Assembly (NCBI GenBank): GCA_963662465.1
Contig: OY759599.1
Coordinates: forward strand, 3,296,001-3,360,000
Origin: Desulfatiglandales bacterium
Lineage (GTDB): Bacteria > Desulfobacterota > DSM-4660 > Desulfatiglandales > Desulfatiglandaceae
Direction: 5' to 3'
Length of the DNA stretch: 64,000 nucleotides
Shown piece by piece: positions 18,683 to 58,082 of the stretch. The stretch's first letter is position 1; the number at the start of each line of letters is the position of its first letter. The position numbers and the translations under genes were made by a program. The notes under the pieces were generated by a model. The model worked only from the letters and a program-made list of their open reading frames with translations. It searched no databases and was not told where the DNA came from.

Positions 18683-19935
18683 TTGCGACACGATGTCGCA
18701 TAGTTTGAGTGTATTCATGTAGTTACATGTAGTACCCGGTATGTTCCTACCGGACCCTACGCAGGCATGCTGCCGTTGCGCTGATGACGGGGTGTGAAGC
18801 CCTGCGGACAACGTACCGAATCGGGTTCAAATGGCGACAGGAGAACCCCTCCGGGAATCCTCCCGGTTAAGGGCTAGGGTCGGATGATATGGTGAAGGTA
18901 TCTGAATGTCTTTAAGCGTCGATTACAAGCGAAGGGCCTACGAGGATTAATAGGTCTTATGCCGCTGCCCAGTGTCAGCGGATGTGGTCAGGTTGCAGGT
19001 CTGCTAACGGCCTGCACGGAACTGTTGTACCACCGGCGTAGAGGGCGCACCTAAGTCATCCACAGGATCAACTATGTGGAACGTGGAAACCCGTTCCCGT
19101 CGCCCCCTTTGGGGGCAGGCTAACGTAAGGCATGCTGTTGGCGGGCCGGAGTAGGAGGCTGAAAAAAGCGAATGCCGGGCTGTAATGGTCCGGATACCGG
19201 GTGAAACATTCCCGGCTCCGTAAGGAGGCAGACGTTCAGCGCGGTGCCCGATTACGTGAACACCGGAGGAATCAGATGAAAGCGGGGAAAGCAGCCAGTG
19301 AAACGGGCGAATGACGGCCCTTGAGGCTGGTGCGCCCCGTATGCCTTTGGCTACTCTGACAACCGGCCTGTAACGTGAAGTGGATGCAAATCCGCGGGAA
19401 TCCCCACCAGGGAAACCTTTTCGGGGGCTTGAGCCACGTGAGGTGAAAGCCTCATGCGTGGTTCTGAGGGTAATAGCGGCATAATACACACCTCCGTACG
19501 TTATTGAAAATTAAAGACTTGTTGTTTTGAGTTTCTTGAAAGCGGGCTCTTTGGAAACCCGGAATGAGCTGCCTTTTTTATCACTTCAGATTCAAGGTCC
19601 TTTTTTGAAATGATCCATGGAGCACCGGAACATACTCGCTTGGCGGGTAGAATCTCATGTTGTATAAGTCTCCAAACTTTGGTGCTGCCAATACCCAGCC
19701 TTTCGCTTGCTTCAGCTACCGTATATTCTTCTCGTCGCTGCCTCTCTCCTTCATGATATACAGGGATATTATGCCTATTTCGAAATGAACGCAACCTTAC
19801 CGGATTCCAGGTATATCCCTTTGTAGTCTTTGTACCCACACGGTTGAGAAAGGCCACGATGTGTTTATCAGGCATAATTCTAGCCAAATCGGCTAAAGCG
19901 TCATTATACGGTTGGATCCATCAGCAGCTTTAGCC

Positions 19936-21798
19936 TCACTGCAATGTGCGAGGAGCACGGCTACTGGCTGCTTTCTTGATGCGATGATTCATCTGATCCG
20001 TCCTAACCAAACGTCTATCTGCTGTCGATAGAGATGCTGTAGAAAGCTGAAGCTCTTTTTTAAGATTCACAATTTCTTGGGAAGGCAGCCATTTATTCTT
20101 CCTATTCCGGTTTTCCATATCTAATTGCGCGAATGCAAGAGGAAGCTGATCGATCGATCCACAAACTATATTGACGTAATCGGCGTGTTCCAGATTATAT
20201 GCCAGAGCCGCTTCTGCCGGTAGATGTTCCAGATCCTGACCAAGATTTTTCCGTCCACTGCGCCGTCGTTCTCCATGCTTCATTGTTCCAAAGAAGTTTT
20301 CGAGCAGTTCGTTGGTTCGACTCATAAGCCGTATGCCGCCGCCTGTTCTTTCCGGCAAACATATGCTGTGCCCCCAAAGACTATCACCATGCGTGTCAAT
20401 ATGTTTGATTATAATATCAATAGCTTCCCGAATATCTTTTCCCGGGCCTCGTTTTGGCCGGCGATCTTTAAGGGCAGTCGTCCATGTTTCAAACTGATAC
20501 CGCATCTCGTTAAGGTCTTCTATTGATTCCTTATCCGGGAGTTCTTTTGCCAACCGCAATTGATTTCGCAGCTCATCGAATAAAGCAGCACGGCGGTGCA
20601 ACTGTTTGACAGTTTGACGAAAGGGCACTTCACAAGAAACCTTCGAAGCGATCCTCCTAAGCCGACGAATCATGCGCACAACATGCTTATCATTCGGAGG
20701 AATGCGAAGAAATGCATCTATTGCTCGCAGAGCAACCATACACCTGTTGAAAAAACTCAAATACGGTCTGTCAAAAGGAAAATCCAGGCCTGAAAGATCT
20801 GCCTTATAGTCGATTATCCACTGTGCTATGTTTCGTACAACGGCAAGGCCATCTCGTCCCGGTGGGAGACGATAGTCATCCCTCTCTTGCCAATCCAGAA
20901 CCGCCTGCCGTGTTTCATTGATCTCAAAGCCTATCTCTCGCCCGATCTCACGGACTAAGTTATTGATTTTAGGTCGTACTTTTGTACGCCGGAAATGGTC
21001 CCGCAAAGCGGAATGGTCAGGTTTTATAAGGTCTTTACCAATGTCGGCAAGAAAGTGTTGATGGCAAGCTAACACGGGTATATCCAATTGCATCTCAGAT
21101 ACGAGTTCGTCGATGGCCGGCGATACCGCGCGTCCCAAGTCGCGCATGGCTCCGCAAGGCGGGCCGAATCGACTGACCGTATCCCGCATGCAGGGTAACA
21201 AAAGATCGGCTCGTTCAGTTGAAATTTTCCAGGCGCCAAGCACCCATTTTCTCCAACCAGCCATCACAACAAATAGGGTCCCTCGACCGGCTTCTCCAGT
21301 GGCATCCACTTGCATCGGCCAACCCCCATCCGCCTCCAGGACCCCTTTCAATTGCTCAGCCCGCACGTGATGAAGTCTGAGCAAGTATTCCAAAAAGTAT
21401 CGTGTCAGATTGCTAACCTCACCGCAAGACAATTTGATGCCGTGCCTTTCCTTTAATTCTGCTTTTATTTCCTCTCTCTGTTTATAGCCGAGCAGCCTAT
21501 TGAGACCCACATAAACCATTACGTCATAACCGACAATGCCGTTTGGCATAATGGTCCGAACGACCGATTCTGCTCTCTTGGTAAACAATGTCCCATCATC
21601 ATTACGGCACCGCTCCGAACATACATGTACCGTTTCCCTAACATTAAACGTACCATGCTCGATGGTCCGTCCTTCATGCACAAACGTTTTTTGTACACGC
21701 ATCGGTCCATTGCAGAGTTCACATACCCCAACCTCATCCTTAGCAGATACAACGATATCCGCTAACCCGACCACTTGTTTAAAACAACTATCATTCAA
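19936..21798 (-). CDS. Putative DDE transposase (CxxH-type), 620 aa
   Basis: VDATG, MRDLG, CHQH, RTNELLENFF motifs; inside the TIRs. Confidence 0.7.
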   Translation of the reverse strand: MNDSCFKQVVGLADIVVSAKDEVGVCELCNGPMRVQKTFVHEGRTIEHGTFNVRETVHVCSERCRNDDGTLFTKRAESVVRTIMPNGIVGYDVMVYVGLNRLLGYKQREEIKAELKERHGIKLSCGEVSNLTRYFLEYLLRLHHVRAEQLKGVLEADGGWPMQVDATGEAGRGTLFVVMAGWRKWVLGAWKISTERADLLLPCMRDTVSRFGPPCGAMRDLGRAVSPAIDELVSEMQLDIPVLACHQHFLADIGKDLIKPDHSALRDHFRRTKVRPKINNLVREIGREIGFEINETRQAVLDWQERDDYRLPPGRDGLAVVRNIAQWIIDYKADLSGLDFPFDRPYLSFFNRCMVALRAIDAFLRIPPNDKHVVRMIRRLRRIASKVSCEVPFRQTVKQLHRRAALFDELRNQLRLAKELPDKESIEDLNEMRYQFETWTTALKDRRPKRGPGKDIREAIDIIIKHIDTHGDSLWGHSICLPERTGGGIRLMSRTNELLENFFGTMKHGERRRSGRKNLGQDLEHLPAEAALAYNLEHADYVNIVCGSIDQLPLAFAQLDMENRNRKNKWLPSQEIVNLKKELQLSTASLSTADRRLVRTDQMNHRIKKAASSRAPRTLQ

Positions 21799-21833
21799 AC
21801 GATGCGCCTGATGCCTTAGGTAGACCAGCGTTT

Positions 21834-22526
21834 TCAGCGGAATCTTGACGTTTTTTTTTCTGCTTGAATGCCATGTTCTGAAAAAATCCGGTTCACCTGA
21901 TCGACAGTGACGGCCAATCCCCGAACGGCGAGGCGGGTTGCTATTTCAGATTGAGATACAATAACTTGGCCCGCCTTCAGCGCTTCCACAAGAACAGCAA
22001 TGGTCGTTTCCATTGGGACCGGCCCGACAATTTGAACCCCTTCTTGTATATGTACGCGACGCGCCGCTATTTGCACTTTTCCTTTATCCGGATCTCCATT
22101 GGTATATAAGGAAAGCCCTTCGGATCGGTGCCGACTTATCTGCTGGGATTGAACCAGCCCATGAAGCGTGTTGTGCAACGTGTTGGGAATCCGAATCTTC
22201 AACAAATGCAACAGCTCTTTCGGTGTCATTCCGGCATTCGATAAATGCACAATTTCCACCACAGTCGCTTTTAGCGTGCCGGCCTTTGAAAAGCCGATTC
22301 CCCGATAAAACCACAAACCCCAAGAATCAAACGAAGGAATATCCTCAAGGGTGTAGTAACGACCGGCATCCGTAAAGCTTGTCAAGTATCCGATAAGTTT
22401 AAGCCTCCGGAATACACTCATCCGAGAACTTGTTTTCAGTACATGGAAGAGCTGATTGAGATCTGCGATGTATTTCTTCCTAAACCATTTATGTAAAGCC
22501 TTTTTGGAGTCTTCAGGAGATAACAT
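21834..22526 (-). CDS. IS accessory protein, probably DNA binding
   Basis: 230-aa ORF upstream of the transposase, inside the TIRs. Confidence 0.6.
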   Translation of the reverse strand: MLSPEDSKKALHKWFRKKYIADLNQLFHVLKTSSRMSVFRRLKLIGYLTSFTDAGRYYTLEDIPSFDSWGLWFYRGIGFSKAGTLKATVVEIVHLSNAGMTPKELLHLLKIRIPNTLHNTLHGLVQSQQISRHRSEGLSLYTNGDPDKGKVQIAARRVHIQEGVQIVGPVPMETTIAVLVEALKAGQVIVSQSEIATRLAVRGLAVTVDQVNRIFSEHGIQAEKKTSRFR

Positions 22527-24610
22527 GTGACCTCTGATACATTTATTTGTTTTCTGTGGCTATTTCCAAATAAATGTATCAAAATGCCAATTGCTTGTCA
22601 ATCCTCCAATTCAATAAAATCAAGTGGTTACTGAAATATAAGGTTTGTTTCCCAGCGTTTGTGTGGTACAATTATGAAAAAAATATCAAAGATAATACCG
22701 TTAATTCAATGGCTTATTGAATCCAACCGTATCCTGACGCTGTAGCAAATCGGATATTATCTTTTTTGTATCAACATCGGTTTTCAATGGGTAACTGGAA
22801 GACTTATTCTTCAGTACCTCCAATTCCGTATGCTCACCCCCTTCCCAGTGAATGATTAATTTGATCTTTTGCTCTTCCAAATAAACAACGATCTCTTTGA
22901 TAACCGTCCGGATTATACGCTTCTTTAAATCCAAAGAGCAACACGGATTATTCCATACACGAGGTAAATCTTGTGACAGATCTCTGATCTCGGTCTCTTC
23001 CTCAGGGGAAAGCGAAGGGGTGTTCGACCCCATAGCGGTAATCTCATTCTCCAACCTTGCTACCTTAACAAGAGCGTCATTCCAATCCTTCTCCAATGTA
23101 GATGCTACCAAACGATTATCAGGGTCCACTGCATTGTATTGACGTTTTGCCCGTAAAGCTTCATAACGCGCTTGTTCCAACTCCAGTTCCCGTTGCCGTT
23201 TCACTGAATCCGATTCATGGTTGATTTTCTTTATCGCCTCTAAAGAAGCTTCTAATCCTATCGGTGATAATACTTTCAAAAGAAAATCCGTAACAGCCCG
23301 GTCAACACGGAATCCACCAAATGATATACACGCCTTTCCTGTCTCGTTACCTCGTTTGCGGCTACACTCATAACGTTTATGAGTTCCATTACGGCCTTGG
23401 TATCGTACAATTAACTTTCTGCCGCAATGACCGCATCTTAACAAACCTCCAAGCAATGCCTTTCCTCCGCGAACAGCTCCTCTCACCACCGGCCTTTTCT
23501 TATTTGTATTTTGAGTTAGTATCTCCATGTTATACTGGTACTCTTCCCATGTGATGTAACCTTCATGGTGATCCAATATTAAAACGTCCCAATCCTTTTG
23601 TTCCTTACGAATACCCTTCCTCAGTCGCTTGCGCCCATTTTCAAAAGTTACCTCTGTTTTAGTCCGGCCATAGACGTAGGCGCCGGCGTAAATTGGGTTG
23701 TTCACTATATGCGACAAGGTATGAGCAGACGGTAGTTTCCACTCTATCCTACGTTCCCCTTTACCGCTGGAAACAACAGCAATCTCAATCTGTTCATCTA
23801 AAAACCAATGATACACCCGACGAAGAGTACCATATTCCTTGAATTTCGTGAATACCAAATCAATGACTTCTTGAATTCGTTTGTCAGGATTCTTTTTCAG
23901 CTTATTATCCCTAGTCTTTATATAGGCTGCCGGTACAGTAAGATATAATTCTCCCCGCTTCGCTTTTTGTTGTATTGCCGCCTGAGAACGCTCCTTTAAT
24001 AGGCTCAATTCCATTGCACTCATTTCTCCCTTTAAGCCCAGGAGCAAACGATCATTTGACACGTTTAGGTCATAAACAGCTCCTTGATCTACAAGAACCG
24101 TTTTTTTAAGTGCACAGATCTCAAGCAACGTATGCCACTCTCGACCGTTGCGGGCCAACCTCGATGATTCAATCGAGAAAATACCCCCTATTCTTCCTTC
24201 ACACACAGATGAAAGAAGATTCTGGAATCCTTTTCTGTCAACGCATCCCGATGCAGTTATTCCCAAATCACTATCTATCATCCATATGTTTTTCTCGTTC
24301 CATCCTAATTCTTTTGCCCTTTCTACCAAGCCATATTGTAAAAGTTGGCTTTCACGATGCTGTAGAACTTGGCCCGGTGTTGACTGACGGATATATATAC
24401 ATGCTTCCCGACTAATATGTTCAGCATTGATTTTATTGCTCATGCTCATTTCCACCTTTCTTTTCTCGAAATGTCAACCGAAAATTGACCTCTTGCGACA
24501 ACCGAATTTTGCCCCCACATGAGTAATTGTAACCTGCGACGCGGTCATAGAAGGCTCCGGTGGCTCCTGCCGAAATATCCATTAAAAGAGCGACCATAAC
24601 CGCACCTTAG

Positions 24611-24817
24611 TCAGCTTCCGACCAGATAATCATCTGGTAAGTCGAGAAAACCCTTTTTCGTCGCTAATTCGAGTTCAATCAAATACCCTATCTCGCCTTT
24701 CATTTTGATCTGTGAAACCATCCACTTCGGTAACCGAATCGTGACGGGGATACGCCTCAGATGTTCAGGACTCCTTTTTCGACCAGCGCCTTTTCGACTC
24801 CCACCTCTCATTTTCAT
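24611..24817 (-). CDS. Small basic protein in the recombinase element
   Basis: RGGSRKGAGRK motif; identical in both copies. Confidence 0.5.
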   Translation of the reverse strand: MKMRGGSRKGAGRKRSPEHLRRIPVTIRLPKWMVSQIKMKGEIGYLIELELATKKGFLDLPDDYLVGS

Positions 24818-25095
24818 CGCTCCTTTTCACCTTCAAATTCGTCCAATATTTTTGAATACCGCGTACGTTTTTCAATTAAACACCTATTTCTATCGGAAAA
24901 TAAGGTATTTATGATTTATAGTTACGATTTTTCTGAGTCGGATTAAGCTGCTTGCTTCAACAACTCCAGTCTCTTGACTGCTTCCAATATCAGACCGCGA
25001 TTTTACGTTAGTGAAACTACTTCTCTTTTCTATTTCTGTTACCCTCAGAATTTTGCCAGAAACCTGACAGAAGCTCTGCAAGGAAATCAATCAAT

Positions 25096-25497
25096 CTATT
25101 TCGTGTTTCTATTGGAATTTCGATCGGTGATGGTAAATAATCCCAAAGCCGAAGTTGATGATATTTTTGTTTCGTCATCTTTCCTCCTTGTTTTCGAATT
25201 GACTTCATCAGGAGGAAACGGTATTTTTCTATTCACTATTAAGCAATATAAATTCTTAAGCGCCCTGATTTCGATAGCGGGTTTTGAGCCGAGGGATATC
25301 TTTTCATACTTTGGATTGGTCATCCACGCAGGTATCAATTCATGGCGACCATCAGGTTTCTTTGTTACAAAACAAGTTTCTCCACGATGGTTTCTGGTAC
25401 CTACCACATAAATTTCTTCACCGGTTCTTGGGTGAAATGGGTAATATACCCGAGTTATAAACTGGTTTTGATGGGCATTATATAGTGGTTCTGAGGG
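25096..25497 (-). CDS. DUF5372/Y4bD-like protein; start codon lies at the other element end
   Basis: YPFHPRTGE...PDG..IPAWMT. Confidence 0.6.
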   Translation of the reverse strand, partial: PSEPLYNAHQNQFITRVYYPFHPRTGEEIYVVGTRNHRGETCFVTKKPDGRHELIPAWMTNPKYEKISLGSKPAIEIRALKNLYCLIVNRKIPFPPDEVNSKTRRKDDETKISSTSALGLFTITDRNSNRNTK

Positions 25498-25618: not shown

Positions 25619-26011
25619 ATGGACATTGTAATTGACACATCAGCACTGATTGCGGTGATCGTTGGTGAACCACAACGTACCAAAATAATAGAAATAACGT
25701 CAGGAAATACACTGATTGGTCCAGGATCTATTCCGTGGGAAATTGGTAACGCATTTTCGGCTATGTTCAAGCGAAAAAGGCTGTCACTTGAGGAAGCGAA
25801 AAAAGGGTTTTCAATCTTCGATAGCATCCCCATTCGATACATTGAGACTGATTTTATAAGTGTTCTAAACATATCAAAACGAGCAGCTATGTATGCATAC
25901 GATGCCTATTTTTTGGATTGTGCATCAAGGCAAAAAGCTCCTCTATTAACATTGGATCGAAGGTTAAAAGCCTCTGCCCAAGATTTTAAAATTGATACCA
26001 TGGAGGTTTAA
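25619..26011 (+). CDS. VapC/PIN toxin
   Basis: VIDTSALIA...YAYDAYF...LLTLDRRL. Confidence 0.85.
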   Translation: MDIVIDTSALIAVIVGEPQRTKIIEITSGNTLIGPGSIPWEIGNAFSAMFKRKRLSLEEAKKGFSIFDSIPIRYIETDFISVLNISKRAAMYAYDAYFLDCASRQKAPLLTLDRRLKASAQDFKIDTMEV

Positions 26012-26012
26012 A

Positions 26013-26231
26013 ATGCAAGTTTATACATATTCAGAAGCTCGTCAAAAGCTTGCTACGGTTCTTGAGCAGGCTGAAAATACAGGTAAAGTGATAATTCGAA
26101 GGAAAGATGGGAGAACGTTCTCCTTGGTTCCGGAAAAAGCTGCTACATCACCACTAAATGTTCCAACAATAAAAGCAAATATAACAACACAAGAAATAGT
26201 TGACATCATTCGCGAAGGAAGGGAAAGGTAG
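26013..26231 (+). CDS. Phd/YefM-family antitoxin
   Basis: MQVYTYSEARQKLATVL...VIIRRKDG; stop codon abuts the attC. Confidence 0.8.
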   Translation: MQVYTYSEARQKLATVLEQAENTGKVIIRRKDGRTFSLVPEKAATSPLNVPTIKANITTQEIVDIIREGRER

Positions 26232-26312: not shown

Positions 26313-27115
26313 TTGCGACACGATGTCGCATAGTTTGAGTGTATTCATGTAGTTACATGTAGCACCCGGTATGTTCCTACCGGACCCTACGCAGGCATGC
26401 TGCCGTTGCGCTGATGACGGGGTGTGAAGCCCTGCGGACAACGTACCGAATCGGGTTCAAATGGCGACAGGAGAACCCCTCCGGGAATCCTCCCCGGTTA
26501 AGGGCTAGGGTCGGATGATATGGTGAAGGTATCTGAATGTCTTTAAGCGTCGATTACAAGCGAAGAGCCTACGAGGATTAATAGGTCTTATGCCGCTGCC
26601 CAGTGTCAGCGGATGTGGTCAGGTTGCAGGTCTGCTAACGGCCTGCACGGAACTGTTGTACCACCGGCGTAGAGGGCGCACCTAAGTCATCCACAGGATC
26701 AACTATGTGGAACGTGGAAACCCGGTCCCGTCGCCCCTTTTGGGGCAGGCTAACCGCAAGGCATGCTGTTGGCGGGCCGGAGTAGGAGGCTGAAAAAAGC
26801 GAATGCCGGGCTGTAATGGTCCGGATACCGGGTGAAACATTCCCGGCTCCGTAAGGAGGCAGACGTTCAGCGCGGTGCCCGATCACGTGAACACCGGAGG
26901 AATCAGATGAAAGCGGGGAAAGCAAATGACGGCCCTTGAGGCTGGTGCGCCCCGTGCGCCTTTGGCTATTCTGACAGCTGGCCTGTAACGTGAAGTGGAT
27001 GCAAATCTGCGGGAATCCCCACCAGGGAAACCTTTTCGGGGGCTTGAGCCACGTGAGGTGAAAGTCTCATGCGTGGTTCTGAGGGTAATAGCGGCATAAT
27101 ACACACCTCCGTACG

Positions 27116-29209
27116 TTATTGAAAATTAAAGACTTGTTGTTTTGAGTTTCTTGAAAGCGGGCTCTTTGGAAGCCCGGAATGAGCTGCCTTTTTTATCACT
27201 TCAGATTCAAGGTCCTTTTTTGAAATGATCCATGGAGCACCGGAACATACTCGCTTGGCGGGTAGAATCTCATGTTGTATAAGTCTCCAAACTTTGGTGC
27301 TGCCAATACCCAGCCTTTCGCTTGCTTCAGCTACCGTATATTCTTCTCGTCGCTGCCTCTCTCCTTCATGATATACAGGGATATTATGCCTATTTCGAAA
27401 TGAACGCAACCTTACCGGATTCCAGGTATATCCCTTTGTAGTCTTTGTACCCACACGGTTGAGAAAGGCCACGATGTGTTTATCAGGCATAATTCTAGCC
27501 AAATCGGATATTATCTTTTTTGTATCAACATCGGTTTTCAATGGGTAACTGGAAGACTTATTCTTCAATACCTCCAATTCCGTATGCTCACCCCCTTCCC
27601 AGTGAATGATTAATTTGATCTTTTGATCTTCCAAATAAACAACGATCTCTTTGATAACCGTCCGGATTATACGCTTCTTTAAATCCAAAGAGCAAAACGG
27701 ATCATTCCATACACGAGGTAAATCTTTTGATAGATCTCTGATCTCAGTCTCCTCCTCAGGGGAAAGCGAAGGGGTGTTCGATCCCATGGCGTCAACCTCA
27801 TTCTCCAATCTTGCTACCTTAACAAGAGCGTCATTCCAATCCTTCTCCAATGTAGATGCTACCAAACGATTATCAGGGTCTACTGCATTGTATTGACGTT
27901 TTGCCCGTAAAGCTTCATAACGCGCTTGTTCCAACTCCAGTTCCCGTTGCCGTTTCACTGAATCCGATTCATGGTTGATTTTCTTTATCGCCTCTAAAGA
28001 AGCTTCTAATCCTATCGGTGATAATACTTTCAAAAGAAAATCCGTAACAGCCCGGTCAACACGAAATCCACCAAATGATATACACGCCTTTCCTGTCTCG
28101 GTACCTCGTTTGCGGCTACACTCATAACGTTTATGAGTTCCATTACGGCCTTGGTATCGTACAATTAACTTTCTGCCGCAATGACCGCATCTTAACAAAC
28201 CTCCAAGCAATGCCTTTCCTCCGCGAACAGATCCTCTCACCACCGGCCTTTTCTTATTTGTATTTTGAGTTAGTATCTCCATGTTATACTGGTACTCTTC
28301 CCATGTGATGTAACCTTCATGGTGATCCAATATTAAAACGTCCCAATCCTTTTGTTCCTTACGAATACCCTTCCTCAGTCGCTTGCGCCCATTTTCAAAA
28401 GTTACCTCTGTTTTAGTCCGGCCATAGGCGTAGGCACCGGCGTAAATTGGGTTGTTCACTATATGCGAGAAGGTATGAGCAGACGGTAGTTTCCACTCTA
28501 TCCTACGTTCCCCTTTACCGCTGGAAACAACAGCAATCTCAATCTGTTTATCTAAAAACCAATGATACACCCGACGAAGGGTACCATATTCCTTGAATTT
28601 CGTGAATACCAAATCAATGACTTCTTGAATTCGTTTGTCAGGATTCTTTTTCAGCTTATTATCCCTGGTCTTTATATAGGCTGCCGGTACAGTAAGATAT
28701 AATTCTCCCCGCTTCGCTTTTTGTTGTATTGCCGCCTGAGAACGTTCCTTTAATAGGCTCAATTCCATTGCACTCATTTCTCCCTTTAAGCCCAGGAGCA
28801 AACGATCATTTGACACGTTTAGGTCATAAACAGCTCCTTGGTCTACAAGAACCGTTTTTTTAAGTGCACAGATCTCAAGCAACGTATGCCACTCTCGACC
28901 GTTGCGGGCCAACCTCGATGATTCAATCGAGAAAATACCCCCTATTCTTCCTTCACACACAGATGAAAGAAGATTCTGGAATCCTTTTCTGTCAACGCAT
29001 CCCGATGCAGTTATTCCCAAATCACTATCTATCATCCATATGTTTTTCTCGTTCCATCCTAATTCTTTTGCCCTTTCTACCAAGCCATATTGTAAAAGTT
29101 GGCTTTCACGATGCTGTAGAACTTGGCCCGGTGTTGACTGACGGATATATATACATGCTTCCCGACTAATATGTTCAGCATTGATTTTATTGCTCATGCT
29201 CATTTCCAC
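27116..29209 (-). CDS. Large serine recombinase, 697 aa
   Basis: YIRQST catalytic Ser, SRLARN, recombinase domain, CGHCG Zn ribbon, C-terminal HTH. Confidence 0.92.
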   Translation of the reverse strand: MEMSMSNKINAEHISREACIYIRQSTPGQVLQHRESQLLQYGLVERAKELGWNEKNIWMIDSDLGITASGCVDRKGFQNLLSSVCEGRIGGIFSIESSRLARNGREWHTLLEICALKKTVLVDQGAVYDLNVSNDRLLLGLKGEMSAMELSLLKERSQAAIQQKAKRGELYLTVPAAYIKTRDNKLKKNPDKRIQEVIDLVFTKFKEYGTLRRVYHWFLDKQIEIAVVSSGKGERRIEWKLPSAHTFSHIVNNPIYAGAYAYGRTKTEVTFENGRKRLRKGIRKEQKDWDVLILDHHEGYITWEEYQYNMEILTQNTNKKRPVVRGSVRGGKALLGGLLRCGHCGRKLIVRYQGRNGTHKRYECSRKRGTETGKACISFGGFRVDRAVTDFLLKVLSPIGLEASLEAIKKINHESDSVKRQRELELEQARYEALRAKRQYNAVDPDNRLVASTLEKDWNDALVKVARLENEVDAMGSNTPSLSPEEETEIRDLSKDLPRVWNDPFCSLDLKKRIIRTVIKEIVVYLEDQKIKLIIHWEGGEHTELEVLKNKSSSYPLKTDVDTKKIISDLARIMPDKHIVAFLNRVGTKTTKGYTWNPVRLRSFRNRHNIPVYHEGERQRREEYTVAEASERLGIGSTKVWRLIQHEILPAKRVCSGAPWIISKKDLESEVIKKAAHSGLPKSPLSRNSKQQVFNFQ

Positions 29210-29365
29210 CTTTCTTTTCTCGAAATGTCAACCGAAAATTGACCTCTTGCGACAACCGAATTTTGACCCCCATATGAGTAATTGTAAGCTGCGACGAAGT
29301 CATAGAAGGCTCCGGTGGCTCCTGCCGAAATATCCATTAAAAGAGCGACCATAACCGCACCTTAG

Positions 29366-29572
29366 TCAGCTTCCGACCAGATAATCATCTGGTAAGTCGA
29401 GAAAACCCTTTTTCGTCGCTAATTCGAGTTCAATCAAATACCCTATCTCGCCTTTCATTTTGATCTGTGAAACCATCCACTTCGGTAACCGAATCGTGAC
29501 GGGGATACGCCTCAGATGTTCAGGACTCCTTTTTCGACCAGCGCCTTTTCGACTCCCACCTCTCATTTTCAT
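29366..29572 (-). CDS. Small basic protein in the recombinase element
   Basis: Identical to 24611-24817. Confidence 0.5.
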   Translation of the reverse strand: MKMRGGSRKGAGRKRSPEHLRRIPVTIRLPKWMVSQIKMKGEIGYLIELELATKKGFLDLPDDYLVGS

Positions 29573-29850
29573 CGCTCCTTTTCACCTTCAAATTCGTCCA
29601 ATATTTTTGAATACCGTGTACGTTTTTCAGTTAAACACCTATTTCTATCGGAAAATAAGCTATTTATGATTTATCGTTACGATTTTTCTGAGTCGGATTA
29701 AGCTGCTTGCTTCAACAACTCCAGTCTCTTGACTGCTTCCAATATCAGACCGCGATTTTACGTTAGTGAAACTACTTCTCTTTTCTATTTCTGTTACCCT
29801 CAGAATTTTGCCAGAAACCTGACAGAAGCTCTGCAAGGAAATCAATCAAT

Positions 29851-30252
29851 CTATTTCGTGTTTCTATTGGAATTTCGATCGGTGATGGTAAATAATCCCA
29901 AAGCCGAAGTTGATGATATTTTTGTTTCGTCATCTTTCCTCCTTGTTTTCGAATTGACTTCATCAGGAGGAAACGGTATTTTTCTATTCACTATTAAGCA
30001 ATATAAATTCTTAAGCGCCCTGATTTCGATAGCGGGTTTTGAGCCGAGGGATATCTTTTCATACTTTGGATTGGTCATCCACGCAGGTATCAATTCATGG
30101 CGACCATCAGGTTTCTTTGTTACAAAACAAGTTTCTCCACGATGCTTTCTGGTACCTACCACATAAATTTCTTCACCGGTTCTTGGGTGAAATGGGTAAT
30201 ATACCCGAGTTATAAACTGGTTTTGATGGGCATTATATAGTGGTTCTGAGGG
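29851..30252 (-). CDS. DUF5372/Y4bD-like protein; start codon lies at the other element end
   Basis: PSEPLYNAHQ...YPFHPRTGE...IPAWMT; the frame runs through the 13-bp core. Confidence 0.6.
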   Translation of the reverse strand, partial: PSEPLYNAHQNQFITRVYYPFHPRTGEEIYVVGTRKHRGETCFVTKKPDGRHELIPAWMTNPKYEKISLGSKPAIEIRALKNLYCLIVNRKIPFPPDEVNSKTRRKDDETKISSTSALGLFTITDRNSNRNTK

Positions 30253-30325
30253 GGCTCGGGGATGGCAACATCCCCCGGCTACCCGGCGTATTCTTTTAAG
30301 TGTGTCGAGAGATGGAGGAAAAACA

Positions 30326-35756: not shown

Positions 35757-37981
35757 GTGCGACGTGATGTCGCGTAAGTAGCTGTTTTGTATATCAATAT
35801 AAACCATATAACAAAACCCTGTTTTCTGCAACAGGTATTCTACCGGGACATGCGTCCGGAGTAATCCGGGGGTGTGAAGCTCTCGGGACAATGAAGCCCG
35901 CGGAATTTTCCGGGAGAGGAAACCGTGAGGGGACCTCAACTCTGCAAGCATCATGCGGTAAGGGAGCTAGAATTGAGCAGTACGGTTAACACATGTGAAT
36001 CGCTGCAGCGTCGTCACGAGAACAAGCCTAAGATGCTGAAAGGCTTGGACCAAAAGGTACGTGGCCAGGAACGGAGGCTGCGAACTCCTCCGTCGCGGAT
36101 GTTGTGCCACCGGCGTAAAGGCGGAACCTAACCTGCTCTGGTACTTACGCGGAACATGGTAAGCCCGTAATCCTCCCCACGGGGAAAGCGAACCGCAAGG
36201 TGAGCCCATGGGGTTGCGGGTAAAGGATGTCAGAAAAAGCGAATGCCTCGTTGTAATGATGGGGATACGGATTGAAGGTGTAACTACCTACATGATCCGG
36301 CTCGAAAGAGAGCAGACTTCTGACCGGTGTTCCATTGCGAGATAATCTGTCGAATCTTTAAACAGGGGAAAGCAAATGACGGTGGCCGTTTTGGCGACTG
36401 GTGCACCTTTGGACGGAACAAACTGGTGGAAATCCATAAACTGGAAAACCGTCGGCGAGCACGTTAGAAGACTGCAGGTGCGTATCGCAAAGGCTGTGAA
36501 GGAAAAGCGATGGGGAAAAGTCAAGGTGATACAGTGGCTTTTGACTCATTCGTTTTATGCCAAGTTGTTGGCTATCAAGCGCGTTACTTCCAACCGGGGT
36601 AAACGCACACCGGGAGTGGATAAAGTCATATGGTCCACCCACATTGACAAAATGCAGGCGGTAAACGACCTGCGCCGAAGAGCCTACCGACCCAAACCGC
36701 TGCGCCGAATTTACATACCCAAGAAAAACGGCAAGAAACGCCCATTGGGCATTCCCACAATGAAGGACAGAGCCATGCAGGCGTTGTACAAATTGGCGCT
36801 TGATCCGGTGGCGGAAACCACCGCCGATCCGAACTCTTACGGGTTCAGACCCTATCGGGGATGTGCGGATGCCATCGGTCAGTGTTTTATTTCTCTGGCC
36901 AAGCGCCACTCACCCGTATGGATTCTGGAGGGAGATATAAAGGCCTGTTTTGATGAAATCAGCCATCAATGGATGCTCGAAAATATCCCTATGGATAAAC
37001 GGACGCTTCAGAAATGGCTGAAATCCGGTTATGTGGAAGGAGGCAAGCTCTATCCAACTTACAGAGGAACCCCGCAAGGCGGGATTATCTCTCCAACATT
37101 GGCTAATATGGTCCTGGATGGTCTGGAAGCGGCAGCCAAAAGTACCGCCCCGATAAGAATCCAGGGCAATATACGGTCCAAGATAAACGTAATCCGTTAC
37201 GCTGATGATTTCATCATCACCGGGAATTCCAGAGAGATGCTAAATGAGATCAAGCTGGAAATTGAAGCATTTATGGAGCGAAGAGGACTTTCGCTTTCAG
37301 CGGAAAAGACGTTGATCACAAGGATAGAAGAAGGATTTGATTTTCTCGGACAGAATCCACGCAAATACCAGGGGAAGCTCTTGATAAAGCCCTCTCGCAA
37401 AAACGTGAAAGCCTTTTTAGGCAATATCCGGCAAACAATCCGAAAGCATGCGGCATCAAGAGCCGACATTCTGATTAAAGTACTCAATCCCAAAATCAGG
37501 GGGTGGGCCAATTACCACAGGCATGTGGTTTCCGGTAGAACTTTCGGGCTTGTAGATCACCGTATCTACAGCTATATTTGGCAATGGATGAGGAGGAAAC
37601 ATTCGGGCAAGAGTAAGAGTTGGCTGGTGGATAAATACTGGTCAAAAGGATCTCGCCCGTGGTCCTTTTCAGCGGTGATCAAGGACGGCTATGCGAAATC
37701 CGCCAGAATTGAACTTGAGAAAGCTTACGACGTCAAGATAAAACGCCATGTCAAAATTCGAGGGGATGCGAACCCCTTCGATCCGAAATATGAACAATAT
37801 TTCAGGAAACGATATGCCCAACGCAGTCAGCAGAAGGCAGACAGGCGTAAAGAGCATAAAACGTCACAACCGGGTAGCCCCGAAAGGGCTTGCCTTTGGA
37901 ATGCTTGAGCCGTGTGCGTTTAACGGCGCACGCACGGTTCTTAGAGGGCTGGGGGATGGTGACATCCCCTGGCTACTCGAC
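35757..37981 (+). mobile_element. Group II intron A3, intact
   Basis: Directly abuts A2; nearly identical to A1. Confidence 0.95.
36376..37908 (+). CDS. ltrA: Group II intron RT/maturase
   Basis: Same protein as 1788-3320. Confidence 0.95.
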   Translation: MTVAVLATGAPLDGTNWWKSINWKTVGEHVRRLQVRIAKAVKEKRWGKVKVIQWLLTHSFYAKLLAIKRVTSNRGKRTPGVDKVIWSTHIDKMQAVNDLRRRAYRPKPLRRIYIPKKNGKKRPLGIPTMKDRAMQALYKLALDPVAETTADPNSYGFRPYRGCADAIGQCFISLAKRHSPVWILEGDIKACFDEISHQWMLENIPMDKRTLQKWLKSGYVEGGKLYPTYRGTPQGGIISPTLANMVLDGLEAAAKSTAPIRIQGNIRSKINVIRYADDFIITGNSREMLNEIKLEIEAFMERRGLSLSAEKTLITRIEEGFDFLGQNPRKYQGKLLIKPSRKNVKAFLGNIRQTIRKHAASRADILIKVLNPKIRGWANYHRHVVSGRTFGLVDHRIYSYIWQWMRRKHSGKSKSWLVDKYWSKGSRPWSFSAVIKDGYAKSARIELEKAYDVKIKRHVKIRGDANPFDPKYEQYFRKRYAQRSQQKADRRKEHKTSQPGSPERACLWNA

Positions 37982-38806
37982 TTGCGACACGAAGTCGCAT
38001 AGTTTGAGTGTATTCATGTAGTTAAATGTAGTACCCGGTATGTTCCTACCGGACCCTACGCAGGCATGCTGCCGTTGCGCTAATGACGGGGTGTGAAGCC
38101 CTGCGGACAACGTACCGAATTGGGTTTGAATGGTGACAGGAGAACCCCTCCGGGAATCCTCCCCGGTTAAGGGCCAGGGTCGGATGATATGGTGAAATTA
38201 ATTGAATGTCTTTAAGCGCCGATTACAAGCGACGGACCTACGAGGATTAATAGGTCTTATGCCGCTGCCCAGTGTCAGCGGATGTGGTCAGGTTGCAGGT
38301 CTGTCAACTGCCTGCACGGAACTGTTGTACCACCGGCGTAGAGGGCGCACCTAAGTCATCCATTGGATCAACTATGTGGAACGTGGAAACCCGGTCCCGT
38401 CGCCCCTTTTGGGGGCAGGCTAACCGCAAGGCATGCTGTTGGCGGGCCGGAATAGGAGGCTGAAAGAAGCGAATGCCGGGCTGTAATGGTCCGGATACCG
38501 GGTGAAACATTCCCGACTCCGTAAGGAGGCAGACGTTCAGCGTGGTGCCCGATCACGTGAACACCGGAGGAATCAGATGAAAGCCGGGAAAACAGCCAGT
38601 GAAACGGGCGAATGACGGCCCTTGAGGCTGGTGCGCCCCGCGCGCCTTTGGCTACTCTGACAGCCGGCTTGTAACGTGAAGTGGATGCAAATCCGCGGGA
38701 ATCCCAACCAGGGAAACCTTTTCGGGGGCTTGAGCCACGTGAGGTGAAAGTCTCATGCGTGGTTCTGAGGGGACTCGGAGATGGCAACATCCCCCGGCTA
38801 CCCGGC
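37982..38806 (+). mobile_element. ORF-less group II intron B3, uninterrupted (825 nt)
   Basis: TTGCG start; D5 gagccacgtgag...catgcgtggttc; D6 ends ctacccggc. Confidence 0.9.
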
Positions 38807-57257: not shown

Positions 57258-58082
57258 TTGCGACACGGAGTCGCATAGTTTAAGTGTATTCATGTAGTTA
57301 CATGTATTACCCGGTATGTCCCTACCGGACCCTACGCAGGCATGCTGCCGTTGCGCTGATGACGGGGTGTGAAGCCCTGCGGACAACGTACCGAATTGGG
57401 TTTGAATGGCGACAGGAGAACCCCTCCGGGAATCCTCCCCGGTTAAGGGCCAGGGTCAGATGATATGGTGAAGGTATCTGAATGTCTTTAAGCGTCGATC
57501 ACAAGCGAAGGGCCTACGAGGATTAACAGGTCTTATGCCGCTGCCCAGTGTCAGCGGATGTGGTCAGGTTGCAGGTCTGCTAACTGCCTGCACGGAACTG
57601 TTGTACCACCGGCGTAGAGGGCGCACCTAAGTCATCCATTGGATCAACTATGTGGAACGTGGAAACCCGGTCCCGCCGCCCCTTTTGGGGGCAGGCTAAC
57701 CGTAAGGCATGCTGTTGGCGGGCCGGAGTAGGAGGCTGAAAAAAGCGAATGCCGGGCTGTAATGGTCCGGATACCGGGTGAAACATTCCCGGCTCCGTAA
57801 GGAGGCAAACGTTCAGCGTGGTGCCCGATCACGTGAACACCGGAGGAATCAGATGAAAGCGGGGAAAGCAGCCAGTGAAACGGGCGAATGACGGCCCTTG
57901 AGGCTGGTGCGCCCCGCGCGCCTTTGGCTACTCTGACAGCCGGCTTGTAACGTGAAGTAGATGCAAATCCGCGGGAATCCCAACCAGGGAAACCTTTTCG
58001 GGGGCTTGAGCCACGTGAGGTGAAAGTCTCATGCGTGGTTCTGAGGGGGGAATGGGACTGAGAGGTCCCTGACCTACCCGAT
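57258..58082 (+). mobile_element. ORF-less group II intron B4 with an alternative D6
   Basis: TTGCG start; ends gacctacccgAT. Confidence 0.9.

What the first reader, a model, noticed from the sequence alone, without database searches (positions are those of the whole stretch)
27086..30252. Gene that is completed only when the recombinase element circularises
Seen: the DUF5372-like ORF at the right end has no start inside the element and its frame runs through the 13-bp core. At the left end, just after the recombinase stop, the - strand reads GGAGG-tgtgtatt-ATG CCG CTA TTA (ATG at 27097; 19482 in copy 1). Joining the ends gives ATG CCG CTA TTA CCC TCA GAA CCA CTA TAT AAT GCC CAT, i.e. MPLLPSEPLYNAH..., exactly in frame. 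Inference: attP lies inside the gene, so excision switches on the protein directly downstream of the recombinase, possibly as a directionality or replication factor.
Basis: partly seen in the sequence, partly recalled or inferred. Interest (0 to 1): 0.85.

Follow-up and report, generated by a model that had tools for sequence, protein, structure and literature searches.

The report
Gene completed when mobile element circularises
A small recombinase-driven mobile element carries a gene whose ribosome-binding site and start codon sit at the element's opposite end, so the gene can be read whole only after the element has cut itself out as a circle, which looks like a built-in sensor of whether the element is inserted or free.

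Summary
Window 27086-30252 is one 3167-bp unit of a large-serine-recombinase (LSR) element. It has 7 copies in this genome. It is bounded by a 13-bp core and inserted at the domain V/VI junction of a group II intron; an intact copy of that intron in the window serves as the empty site.

The first gene, a distant DUF5372 relative, has no conserved start codon in the integrated form. An SD (GGAGG), an ATG and four codons lie 18 nt after the LSR stop at the other end. They are in frame across the core.

The same split was found in 12 of 12 related metagenome loci that hold both ends. It was also found in 6 of 6 proteobacterial plasmid elements that hold both ends. These share only 28.9-39.5% protein identity; five sit in IS21 istB and one lies between two host genes.

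The body of the gene is under purifying selection (median dN/dS 0.33). Some distant database homologues carry the "junction" N-terminus contiguously.

A complex model places the protein on the LSR zinc-ribbon and coiled-coil base, where directionality factors bind (score 0.64, best control 0.00).

Three gaps remain: no circle junction was found in reads or contigs, the ATG is also part of the dyad-symmetric attP, and the direction of the factor's effect is not known.

The parts
27073..27085 (.). 13-bp core, left copy (attL side), GTGGTTCTGAGGG = 3' end of intron domain V and start of domain VI
30240..30252 (.). 13-bp core, right copy (attR side)
27086..27115 (-). Left-end arm of attP: SD GGAGG (27110-27106), ATG (27097-27095) and four codons (27094-27083 run into the core). 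The ATTATG is also the outer hexamer of the dyad-symmetric site.
27116..29209 (-). Large serine recombinase, 697 aa (Resolvase + Recombinase + Zn_ribbon_recom + C-terminal HTH_17)
29366..29572 (-). 68-aa ORF with no family hit. It matched by tblastn only in L016 among the 30 related loci, which have the LSR start next to the 63-aa ORF.
29772..29963 (-). Small conserved ORF (63 aa as listed; likely start at the second Met, 29933, behind AAGGAGG). It overlaps the 3' end of the DUF5372-like ORF in another frame and, in relatives, abuts the LSR start. Candidate second cofactor.
   Evidence: positional equivalents are annotated in plasmids
29851..30252 (-). Body of the DUF5372-like gene (133 codons plus stop). 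It has no canonical start before residue 31. Residues about 10-65 form an SH3/Tudor-like barrel, 77-88 a helix, and the tail is disordered. The first about 17 codons double as the right arm of attP (TATAAT/CATAAT mirror of ATTATG).
26313..27085 (+). 5' part (domains I-V) of the ORF-less group II intron that serves as attB
30253..30287 (+). Displaced domain VI and 3' end of the same intron
19471..25497 (-). Copy 1 of the element (cores at 19458-19470 and 25485-25497) in a second copy of the intron. Its LSR gene is broken by a 2.85-kb IS-like insertion at about 19893-22742.
38730..38806 (+). Unoccupied attB: domain V/VI of an intact copy of the same intron (a second free copy is at 58006-58082)

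Best explanation
This is a compact (2.7-3.2 kb), IS-like integrative element driven by a large serine recombinase. Its attP lies inside the first about 17 codons of an accessory gene. Integration by a crossover at the centre of attP leaves the gene body at one end of the element. It leaves the Shine-Dalgarno sequence, ATG and four codons at the other end, 18 nt behind the LSR stop codon. Integrated copies therefore cannot start translation of this protein at its own start (shown by sequence). Only the excised circle joins SD-ATG to the body, directly downstream of the LSR and probably translationally coupled to it (inferred). [quoted passage not shown] My reading is that the element reports its own state (inserted or free) through the presence of this cofactor, which then sets the recombinase's preferred direction. 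By analogy with the circle-specific promoters of Tn4451, ICEclc and ICEKp1, I lean to a role in the circle phase: favouring integration or countering an excision factor, possibly the small overlapping ORF. The sign of the effect is not shown. Confidence is about 0.75 for 'gene complete only in the circle' and about 0.5 for 'LSR-bound directionality-type cofactor'.
For: (1) Boundaries and empty site.
(2) Seven copies at 98.7-100% identity, all with the ORF intact, so the element was active recently.
(3) Family alignment: similarity between homologues begins at the core. Upstream N-terminal extensions are all unrelated flank, several of them antisense intron domain VI.
(4) In all 14 related loci that hold the LSR 3' end, the stop is followed at 18 nt by (G/A)GAGG-N8-ATG plus 4 codons. 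In the 12 that also hold the other end, the reading is in phase with the ORF.
(5) A deep branch on proteobacterial plasmids (protein identity 28.9-39.5%, LSR 39-48%) has the same layout in all 6 elements with both ends. Five sit in the IstB P-loop coding region and one between ubiX and a DUF542 gene; the latter was checked against an empty site.
(6) The AGGTG of the SD is kept on the left arm in all these elements, but the mirror position on the right arm is not conserved between branches. The SD-ATG spacing and the stop-ATG distance each vary once while the frame is kept.
(7) There is no conserved alternative start. Of 34 integrated copies, 17 have no in-frame ATG/GTG/TTG between the upstream stop or contig end and the core. 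The other 17 have starts at unrelated positions in unrelated flanks. Only 2 of 34 have an internal start before the conserved motif.
(8) The protein is under selection: median dN/dS 0.33 over 146 usable pairs, and variable sites by codon position are 44/32/57 of 79.
(9) PGAP mostly lists no gene under the plasmid ORF, although that table omits pseudogenes.
(10) Distant homologues called on contiguous DNA begin with Met 8-11 residues before the H-[NTS]-A motif, as the junction reading predicts. P0035 matches the window's junction reading in 10 of its first 13 residues, and P0076 mirrors the L047 junction.
(11) Complex model of LSR + protein residues 1-96: score 0.64, best of 3 controls 0.00. 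The mark was reached by 116 of 157 solved complexes and 2 of 215 mismatched pairs; these counts hold only roughly because my own alignments were used. Runs agree in at least 76% of contacts and partner pLDDT is at least 69. The interface covers LSR 335, 340-345 (CGHCG zinc ribbon), 393-406, 480-498, 508-521 and 532-542. [quoted passage not shown]
Against: No attP junction was seen. There was no 'go back' joint in Logan contigs of 4 runs (2 probably DNA, 2 RNA-library), none in the genome or in the fetched loci, and 0 hits in viral contigs; contigs drop rare forms. No junction transcript or peptide was seen.

The ATG is part of the outer hexamer of a dyad-symmetric attP (ATTATG ... CATAAT, 24 bp apart in every element read). 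Its invariance therefore has a second possible cause. Both arms are conserved for about 32 nt in the Desulfobacterota-type family, which takes in the SD.

All elements are homologous, so the in-frame cases are not independent trials. 17 of 34 integrated copies have some in-frame upstream start (one, in copy 2, with a good SD 104 codons upstream), so flank fusions are not excluded.

A neighbouring, different LSR element with a PGAP-annotated DUF5372 protein does not show the split. I could not see the DNA that encodes P0035 or P0076.

The complex is a model. LSR-RDF complexes have been solved, so the hotspot may partly be recalled by the model. If the protein were a classical RDF, a circle-only supply would block re-integration, so the logic is unresolved.
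Confidence: 0.7

Rival explanations
1. The left-end SD-ATG look-alike is only the outer part of the recombinase's attP arm. The DUF5372-like protein would then be made from integrated copies by another route: a start supplied by the flank, a non-canonical start, or read-through fusion.
For: ATTATG/CATAAT dyad with constant 24-bp spacing, and about 32 nt conserved on both arms. 17 of 34 integrated copies have an in-frame upstream start somewhere. An RNA-library contig crosses attR from the flank.
Against: Flank starts sit at unrelated positions, and 17 of 34 copies have none. The antisense of intron domain VI has no in-frame start. AGGTG is kept only on the left arm across branches whose right arms differ. 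The frame is kept despite changes in spacing. Contiguous homologues start with Met at the predicted distance. Near-cognate codons inside the element are not conserved and lack an SD.
Confidence: 0.12
2. The gene is completed by circularisation, but its product is not a directionality cofactor. It might instead be a DNA-binding regulator of the operon, a circle-maintenance factor or an anti-host factor.
For: The fold is a generic SH3/Tudor-like barrel with no significant structural match. The direction of any effect on recombination is unknown. The small overlapping ORF could be the real RDF.
Against: The complex model places the protein on the known RDF hotspot with controls at 0.00. It is encoded 18 nt behind the LSR stop in the circle. 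Every relative with enough sequence has it next to an LSR: 24 of 30 loci, and the plasmid elements.
Confidence: 0.15
3. The right-end ORF is a decaying remnant, an N-terminally truncated pseudogene, and the in-frame junction is inherited by chance.
For: No start in the integrated form, and mostly no gene listed by PGAP.
Against: The ORF is intact in 34 of 34 copies examined. Median dN/dS is 0.33 with third-position bias. It is conserved from Desulfobacterota-type MAGs to Alpha- and Betaproteobacteria. 608 representative clusters match at E<=1e-3.
Confidence: 0.03

Closest known systems
SSV-type 'suicidal' tyrosine integrases of archaeal viruses and plasmids (PMC7253208, abstract read)
   Same: The recombination site lies inside an ORF of the element, so integration splits the gene and only the circular form carries it whole.
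   Different: There the split gene is the tyrosine integrase itself, cut into two pseudogenes. Here the recombinase is a serine enzyme and stays intact, and the split gene is an accessory protein that loses only its SD, ATG and four codons.
Circle-specific promoters: Tn4451/Tn4453 TnpX (Lyras & Rood 2000, seen only as a reference-list title in PMC13023037); ICEclc Pcirc and ICEKp1 P3'end (passage in PMC13023037); Tn916 transcription across the joint (passage)
   Same: Joining the two ends of the excised element switches on a gene that acts in the circle phase. Tn4451 also uses a large serine recombinase.
   Different: Those act at the level of transcription: a promoter is formed at the joint or brought next to the gene. 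Here a translation start and the first codons are joined to the gene body. A promoter scan found nothing above chance.
Recombination directionality factors of large serine integrases (SPbeta, TG1, Bxb1, phiC31 gp3; PMC11722253 passages, PMC11795197 abstract, PMC5814800 title in a search listing)
   Same: A small, structurally idiosyncratic protein encoded by the element, modelled on the DBD2/coiled-coil-base hotspot of its LSR.
   Different: No sequence or fold relation to known RDFs. Activity and direction are untested. Known RDFs are supplied by phage regulatory circuits, not by the topology of the element.
Integration-dependent immunity of mycobacteriophages and the Mx8 intP/intX change (recalled from memory, no call)
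   Same: attP lies within a gene, so integration changes the protein that is made.
   Different: Those alter the 3' end or C-terminus of a repressor or integrase. Here the 5' end and the start of translation are removed.
Pfam DUF5372 (PF17342)
   Same: HPFHP-type motif at the start of a small beta-rich domain, and an LSR neighbour. One relative (P0073) is named DUF5372 by its source. A PGAP 'DUF5372 family protein' lies upstream of another LSR, with an HTH protein gene between them.
   Different: The score is below Pfam's cutoff (19.9 against 25 bits; 4 of 20 members hit). The one canonical DUF5372 element examined lacks the split start.

Membership tests
Large serine recombinase integrative element | Recombinase with Resolvase catalytic domain + Recombinase domain + zinc ribbon (and coiled coil) | tested here: met
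   Pfam PF00239 7e-19, PF07508 5.4e-12, PF13408 7.2e-8, plus HTH_17. The coiled coil is inferred from the sequence.
Large serine recombinase integrative element | Defined ends with a short common core; the empty site equals left flank + core + right flank | tested here: met
   Intact intron at 38730-38806. 7 copies share the ends. Empty site for the Paracoccus relative.
Large serine recombinase integrative element | attP with imperfect dyad symmetry around the crossover | tested here: met
   ATTATG and CATAAT-type hexamers 24 bp apart in every element read. Copies 3 and 7 place the crossover near the centre.
Large serine recombinase integrative element | Excised circular form (attP junction) exists | tested here: inconclusive
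   Not found in contigs of 4 runs, the genome, the fetched loci or viral contigs. Contigs drop rare forms.
Pfam DUF5372 (PF17342) | Score at or above the gathering cutoff (25 bits) | tested here: not met
   19.9 bits, E 7.8e-4. 4 of 20 members hit, best E 5.8e-4. A distant relation remains likely.
Recombination directionality factor (LSR cofactor) | Binds its LSR at DBD2 / base of the coiled coil | tested here: inconclusive
   Model only: score 0.64 against best control 0.00; contacts at the zinc ribbon and both flanks of the coiled coil.
Recombination directionality factor (LSR cofactor) | Changes the direction of recombination (attL x attR against attP x attB) | not testable with these tools
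   Needs in vitro or in vivo recombination assays.
att-site-inside-a-gene elements (SSV-type) | The recombination core lies inside an ORF of the element | tested here: met
   The core occupies codons 5-9 of the joined reading.
att-site-inside-a-gene elements (SSV-type) | The split gene is the recombinase itself | tested here: not met
   The LSR ORF is whole in copy 2 and in relatives.
Junction-promoter elements (Tn4451, IS911 type) | A promoter is formed or repositioned by joining the ends | tested here: inconclusive
   7 sigma-70-like sites against 7.0 +/- 2.5 in shuffles, and none spans the joint convincingly. The host's promoter types are not covered.

The most novel reading that the evidence does not exclude
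This is a widespread family of minimal serine-recombinase transposons, found from Desulfobacterota-type genomes to rhizobial plasmids. It homes into conserved motifs of other mobile elements: the group II intron domain V/VI junction and the IstB P-loop codons. It controls its own directionality by topology. The cofactor gene is translatable only from the excised circle, and the cofactor occupies the RDF hotspot of the LSR to switch it to integration mode, as an 'inverse RDF' or anti-RDF against the small overlapping ORF. The result would be a complete excise-then-insert cycle without host signals.
Probability: 0.3. Interest if true: 0.85.

Novelty: new variant of a known kind. Interest (0 to 1): 0.72.

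Why it matters
Directionality of large serine recombinases is normally set by when a phage expresses its RDF. An element that ties the cofactor's translation start to its own excised or integrated state would be a new and very compact control principle. It would be directly testable with two att constructs and three small proteins, and of practical interest because LSRs and their RDFs are used as genome-engineering tools.

The finding also explains why annotation pipelines mostly list no gene for this ORF on the rhizobial plasmids examined. It gives a first functional lead for DUF5372-type proteins; a full-text search for 'DUF5372' found 0 papers. Finally, it shows a family of elements that specialises in inserting into other mobile elements.

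Tried and rejected
Searches for the circle junction all came back empty:
- Read laying on 4 runs, all Logan contigs, gave only 'skips 3167' joints from empty introns and no go-back joint.
- A regex for the joined arms in the genome and in all loci found none.
- The same pattern in viral contigs gave 0 hits.
- No fetched contig has an LSR directly upstream of the gene.

None of these results argues against a circle, because contigs drop rare forms.

Other steps that led nowhere:
- tblastn against phages: no match.
- Promoter and terminator scan: at chance level.
- Foldseek against the PDB: no hit at E<=1e-3, only generic Tudor/SH3 barrels.
- Phylum sample of 401 genomes: 1 weak hit besides the own genome.
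- Literature searches found no description of this element type, of DUF5372, or of a translation start split by an att site in a serine-recombinase element. This covers only the held open-access library.

Rejected readings:
- 'The Rfam domain V/VI hit at 27044-27114 means the left end is intron.' The true domain VI is at 30253-30287.
- 'TCGGGGG is the core in the Paracoccus element', which would be out of frame. The empty site shows the core GG(G/C)GATCG, which is in frame.
Full report
WHAT IS THERE

A 13-bp core, GTGGTTCTGAGGG, stands at 27073-27085 and at 30240-30252, so 27086-30252 is exactly one 3167-bp unit. On the - strand the unit reads as follows:
- the core;
- an ORF body of 133 codons (30252-29851);
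- a small overlapping ORF (29963-29772);
- a 68-aa ORF (29572-29366);
- a 697-aa large serine recombinase (29209-27116; Resolvase, Recombinase, Zn_ribbon_recom and a C-terminal HTH_17);
- 18 nt after the LSR stop, GGAGG, an 8-nt spacer, ATG at 27097 and four codons that run into the other copy of the core.

Copy 1 (19471-25497) is the same element at an offset of 7615. Its recombinase gene is broken by a 2.85-kb IS-like insertion.

WHERE IT SITS

Rfam finds 26 group II intron matches in the window: 11 RF02012, 2 RF02001 and 13 RF00029. Both copies of the element lie inside copies of one ORF-less intron, on the strand opposite to the intron. An intact copy of that intron (domain V/VI at 38730-38806) reads left flank + core + right flank. 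The attachment site is therefore the domain V/VI junction, and the element boundaries are proven. The RF00029 hit that runs over the element's left end (27044-27114) is a look-alike; the real domain VI is at 30253-30287.

The complete 8.16-Mb genome holds 7 copies at 98.7-100% identity. Five are in this intron family, one is in another intron and one is in a non-intron site. Copy 3 and copy 7 place the crossover near CCCT|CAGAACC on the gene strand. Of 21 occurrences of the 11-nt core in the genome, 6 are left junctions, 6 are right junctions and 9 are free. Two of the free ones are in the same intron family, and both lie in this window.

IS THE GENE REALLY WITHOUT A START?

Pfam relates the ORF only weakly to DUF5372 (E 7.8e-4, 19.9 bits against a cutoff of 25; 4 of 20 relatives hit). 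A protein search gave 19 relatives at 51-98% identity. In their alignment, similarity begins at the residues encoded by the core. Everything upstream differs from protein to protein, and several of these extensions are the antisense translation of intron domain VI.

I made a census of 34 integrated copies (27 loci and 7 genome copies):
- 17 have no in-frame ATG, GTG or TTG between the nearest upstream stop (or, in 3 cases, the contig end) and the core.
- The other 17 have starts at unrelated places in unrelated flanks.
- Only 2 have an internal start before the conserved YYPFHPR motif.
- The GTG at residue 31 that ORF callers use here occurs only in this element and in one 95% relative.
- 10 loci have no start through residue 45.

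The protein is nevertheless under purifying selection. Median dN/dS is 0.33 over 146 usable pairs for codons 21-96, and variable sites by codon position are 44, 32 and 57 of 79. The ORF is intact in all 34 copies.

IS THE SPLIT CONSERVED?

The search for related loci gave 3 genome and 27 metagenome loci. In 24 of the 30 an LSR (69-84% identical) follows the gene.

All 14 loci that hold the LSR 3' end have, 18 nt after the stop, (G/A)GAGG, 8 nt, ATG and four codons, followed by the antisense 3' end of an intron domain V. In the 12 that also hold the other end, the codon containing the junction falls in the same phase on both sides. The joined reading is therefore open and in frame. These 12 loci represent 9 distinct element variants.

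A tblastn search of plasmids then found 91 records, mostly rhizobial, with a 25.5-39.5% identical ORF that mostly has no annotated gene under it. That gene table omits pseudogenes. I fetched eleven such places. Six hold both ends of an element: M. huakuii, B. betae, Azospirillum, S. medicae, P. sabiae and Paracoccus yeei. All six have the same three-gene layout: the unannotated ORF, a small hypothetical ORF and a 'recombinase family protein' (LSR 39-48% identical). All six have (A/G)AGGTG, 4-6 nt, ATG and 4-6 codons after the LSR stop, in phase with the ORF at the other end.

Five of these sit in the P-loop coding region of IS21 istB. There I derived the phase from the Walker A reading frame, which is an inference. 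The Paracoccus element lies between ubiX and a DUF542 gene, and I checked it against an empty site in a sister plasmid.

One different LSR element next door in S. medicae pMl2 does not show the split. It carries a PGAP 'DUF5372 family protein' called from a CTG, and its joined reading stops after about 15 codons in another frame. The split is therefore a property of this clade, not of every DUF5372 neighbour.

A COMPLICATION

In every element read, the ATG is the end of a hexamer (ATTATG or ATCATG). Its inverted copy (CATAAT, CACAAT, TATAAT and similar) lies exactly 24 bp further on, inside the gene, where it encodes the conserved H-N-A. This is the dyad symmetry expected of a serine-integrase attP, with the crossover at its centre. 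The invariance of the ATG alone is therefore not proof of a start codon.

In the closer family, both arms are also conserved for about 32 nt, which takes in the SD.

Three observations argue that it is a start as well:
- The AGGTG is kept on the left arm in both deep branches, while the mirror positions on the right arm differ between branches.
- The SD-ATG spacing (4 against 6 nt) and the stop-ATG distance (21 against 18 nt) each vary once, and the frame is kept.
- A profile search of 1.84 billion representatives found 608 relatives at E<=1e-3. I fetched 28 of them, chosen because the match began near the protein's N-terminus. Of these, 16 begin with Met 8-11 residues before the H-[NTS]-A motif. 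P0035 matches the window's junction reading in 10 of its first 13 residues, and P0076 mirrors the M. huakuii junction.

These contiguous forms are either unsplit relatives or assembled circles; several come from contigs of 1.0-3.5 kb. I could not see their DNA.

WHAT THE PROTEIN MAY DO

The AlphaFold model (mean pLDDT 64.6; residues about 10-65 score above 85) is an SH3/Tudor-like barrel followed by a helix (77-88) and a disordered tail. Foldseek finds nothing significant.

A complex model of the LSR with residues 1-96 of the protein supports binding:
- Score 0.64; best of 3 controls 0.00.
- The mark was reached by 116 of 157 solved complexes and 2 of 215 mismatched pairs. These counts hold only roughly, because my own alignments were used.
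- The runs agree in at least 76% of contacts, and partner pLDDT is at least 69.
- The contacts are the zinc-ribbon CGHCG (340-345), residues 393-406 and 480-498 on either side of the coiled coil, and 508-542.

[quoted passage not shown] LSR-RDF complexes have been solved, so part of this may be the model's memory of the hotspot. The model does not show binding.

HOW IT MOST LIKELY WORKS

Shown by sequence: integration separates the SD, ATG and four codons from the gene body, and the two halves are in frame across the core in every relative tested.

Inferred: only the circle makes the protein, coupled to LSR translation, and the protein binds the LSR at the directionality hotspot.

Open: the sign of the effect. 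A classical RDF made only by the circle would hinder re-integration. By analogy with circle-specific expression in Tn4451, ICEclc and ICEKp1, I lean to a circle-phase function: favouring integration, or displacing an excision factor such as the small overlapping ORF.

WHAT WAS NOT FOUND

No attP joint was found in Logan contigs of four runs. Only 'skips 3167' joints appeared, which come from empty introns. None was found in the genome or the fetched loci or in viral contigs. RNA-library contigs cover the element and one crosses attR, but contigs cannot show a transcript.

COMPARISON AND NOVELTY

The closest concept is the SSV-type 'suicidal' integrase, whose gene is split by integration (PMC7253208, abstract). 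The closest relatives by function are junction promoters and LSR RDFs.

A translation start split from an accessory gene of a serine-recombinase element was not found in my searches of the held library, and neither was the family's habit of inserting into other mobile elements. I rate it a new variant of a known kind.

Noticed in passing
window 1-64000: The window is packed with group II introns: 26 Rfam matches (11 RF02012, 2 RF02001, 13 RF00029), several of them ORF-less.
   Followed up: partly
window 19893-22742: A 2.85-kb IS-like insertion breaks the recombinase of copy 1. It has two - strand ORFs (620 and 230 aa) with no Pfam hit, imperfect terminal inverted repeats and an apparent 8-bp target duplication. 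One further full-length copy and three more pieces, at about 99.6-100% identity, lie elsewhere in the genome.
   Followed up: partly
window 37905-38049: The free ORF-less intron starts directly after the 3' end of another intron (…CTACTCGAC|TTGCGAC). The other copies share a different conserved upstream stretch. Introns seem to home next to introns.
   Followed up: no
G000:C1:6823236-6826414 (copy 7): This copy is in a non-intron site. Its two junctions keep CCCT and CAGAACC of the core but do not share a clean 2-bp overlap, so it is a secondary site with a mismatch or a later mutation.
   Followed up: partly
L047, L048, L049, L051, L057 (rhizobial, Azospirillum and Paraburkholderia plasmids): The proteobacterial branch of the element family inserts into the Walker A (P-loop) codons of IS21 istB, antisense to it, leaving a truncated 'ATP-binding protein' annotation.
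   Followed up: partly
L055:813-4199 (S. medicae pMl2): A second, different LSR element carries a DUF5372 protein (PGAP, CTG start, truncated), an HTH protein and a 694-aa LSR. SD + ATG overlaps the LSR stop (TGATG), but the joined reading stops after about 15 codons.
   Followed up: partly
window 25619-26231: A PIN toxin and Phd/YefM antitoxin pair lies between the two element copies.
   Followed up: no
window 29933-29772 and relatives: The small ORF has its AAGGAGG SD and start inside the 3' part of the DUF5372-like ORF, in another frame. The conserved 'TRR' of the larger protein is therefore also the SD of the smaller one.
   Followed up: partly
L024:1689-1748: In one metagenome locus the flank on the gene side is groES-like coding sequence, while the other flank is intron domain V. 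This suggests a rearrangement or an intron beside groES.
   Followed up: no
L016 (Desulfatiglandales MAG, 95% identical gene): The element copy has the gene, the small ORF and part of the 68-aa ORF, but no recombinase within 6 kb downstream, so it is a decayed copy.
   Followed up: no
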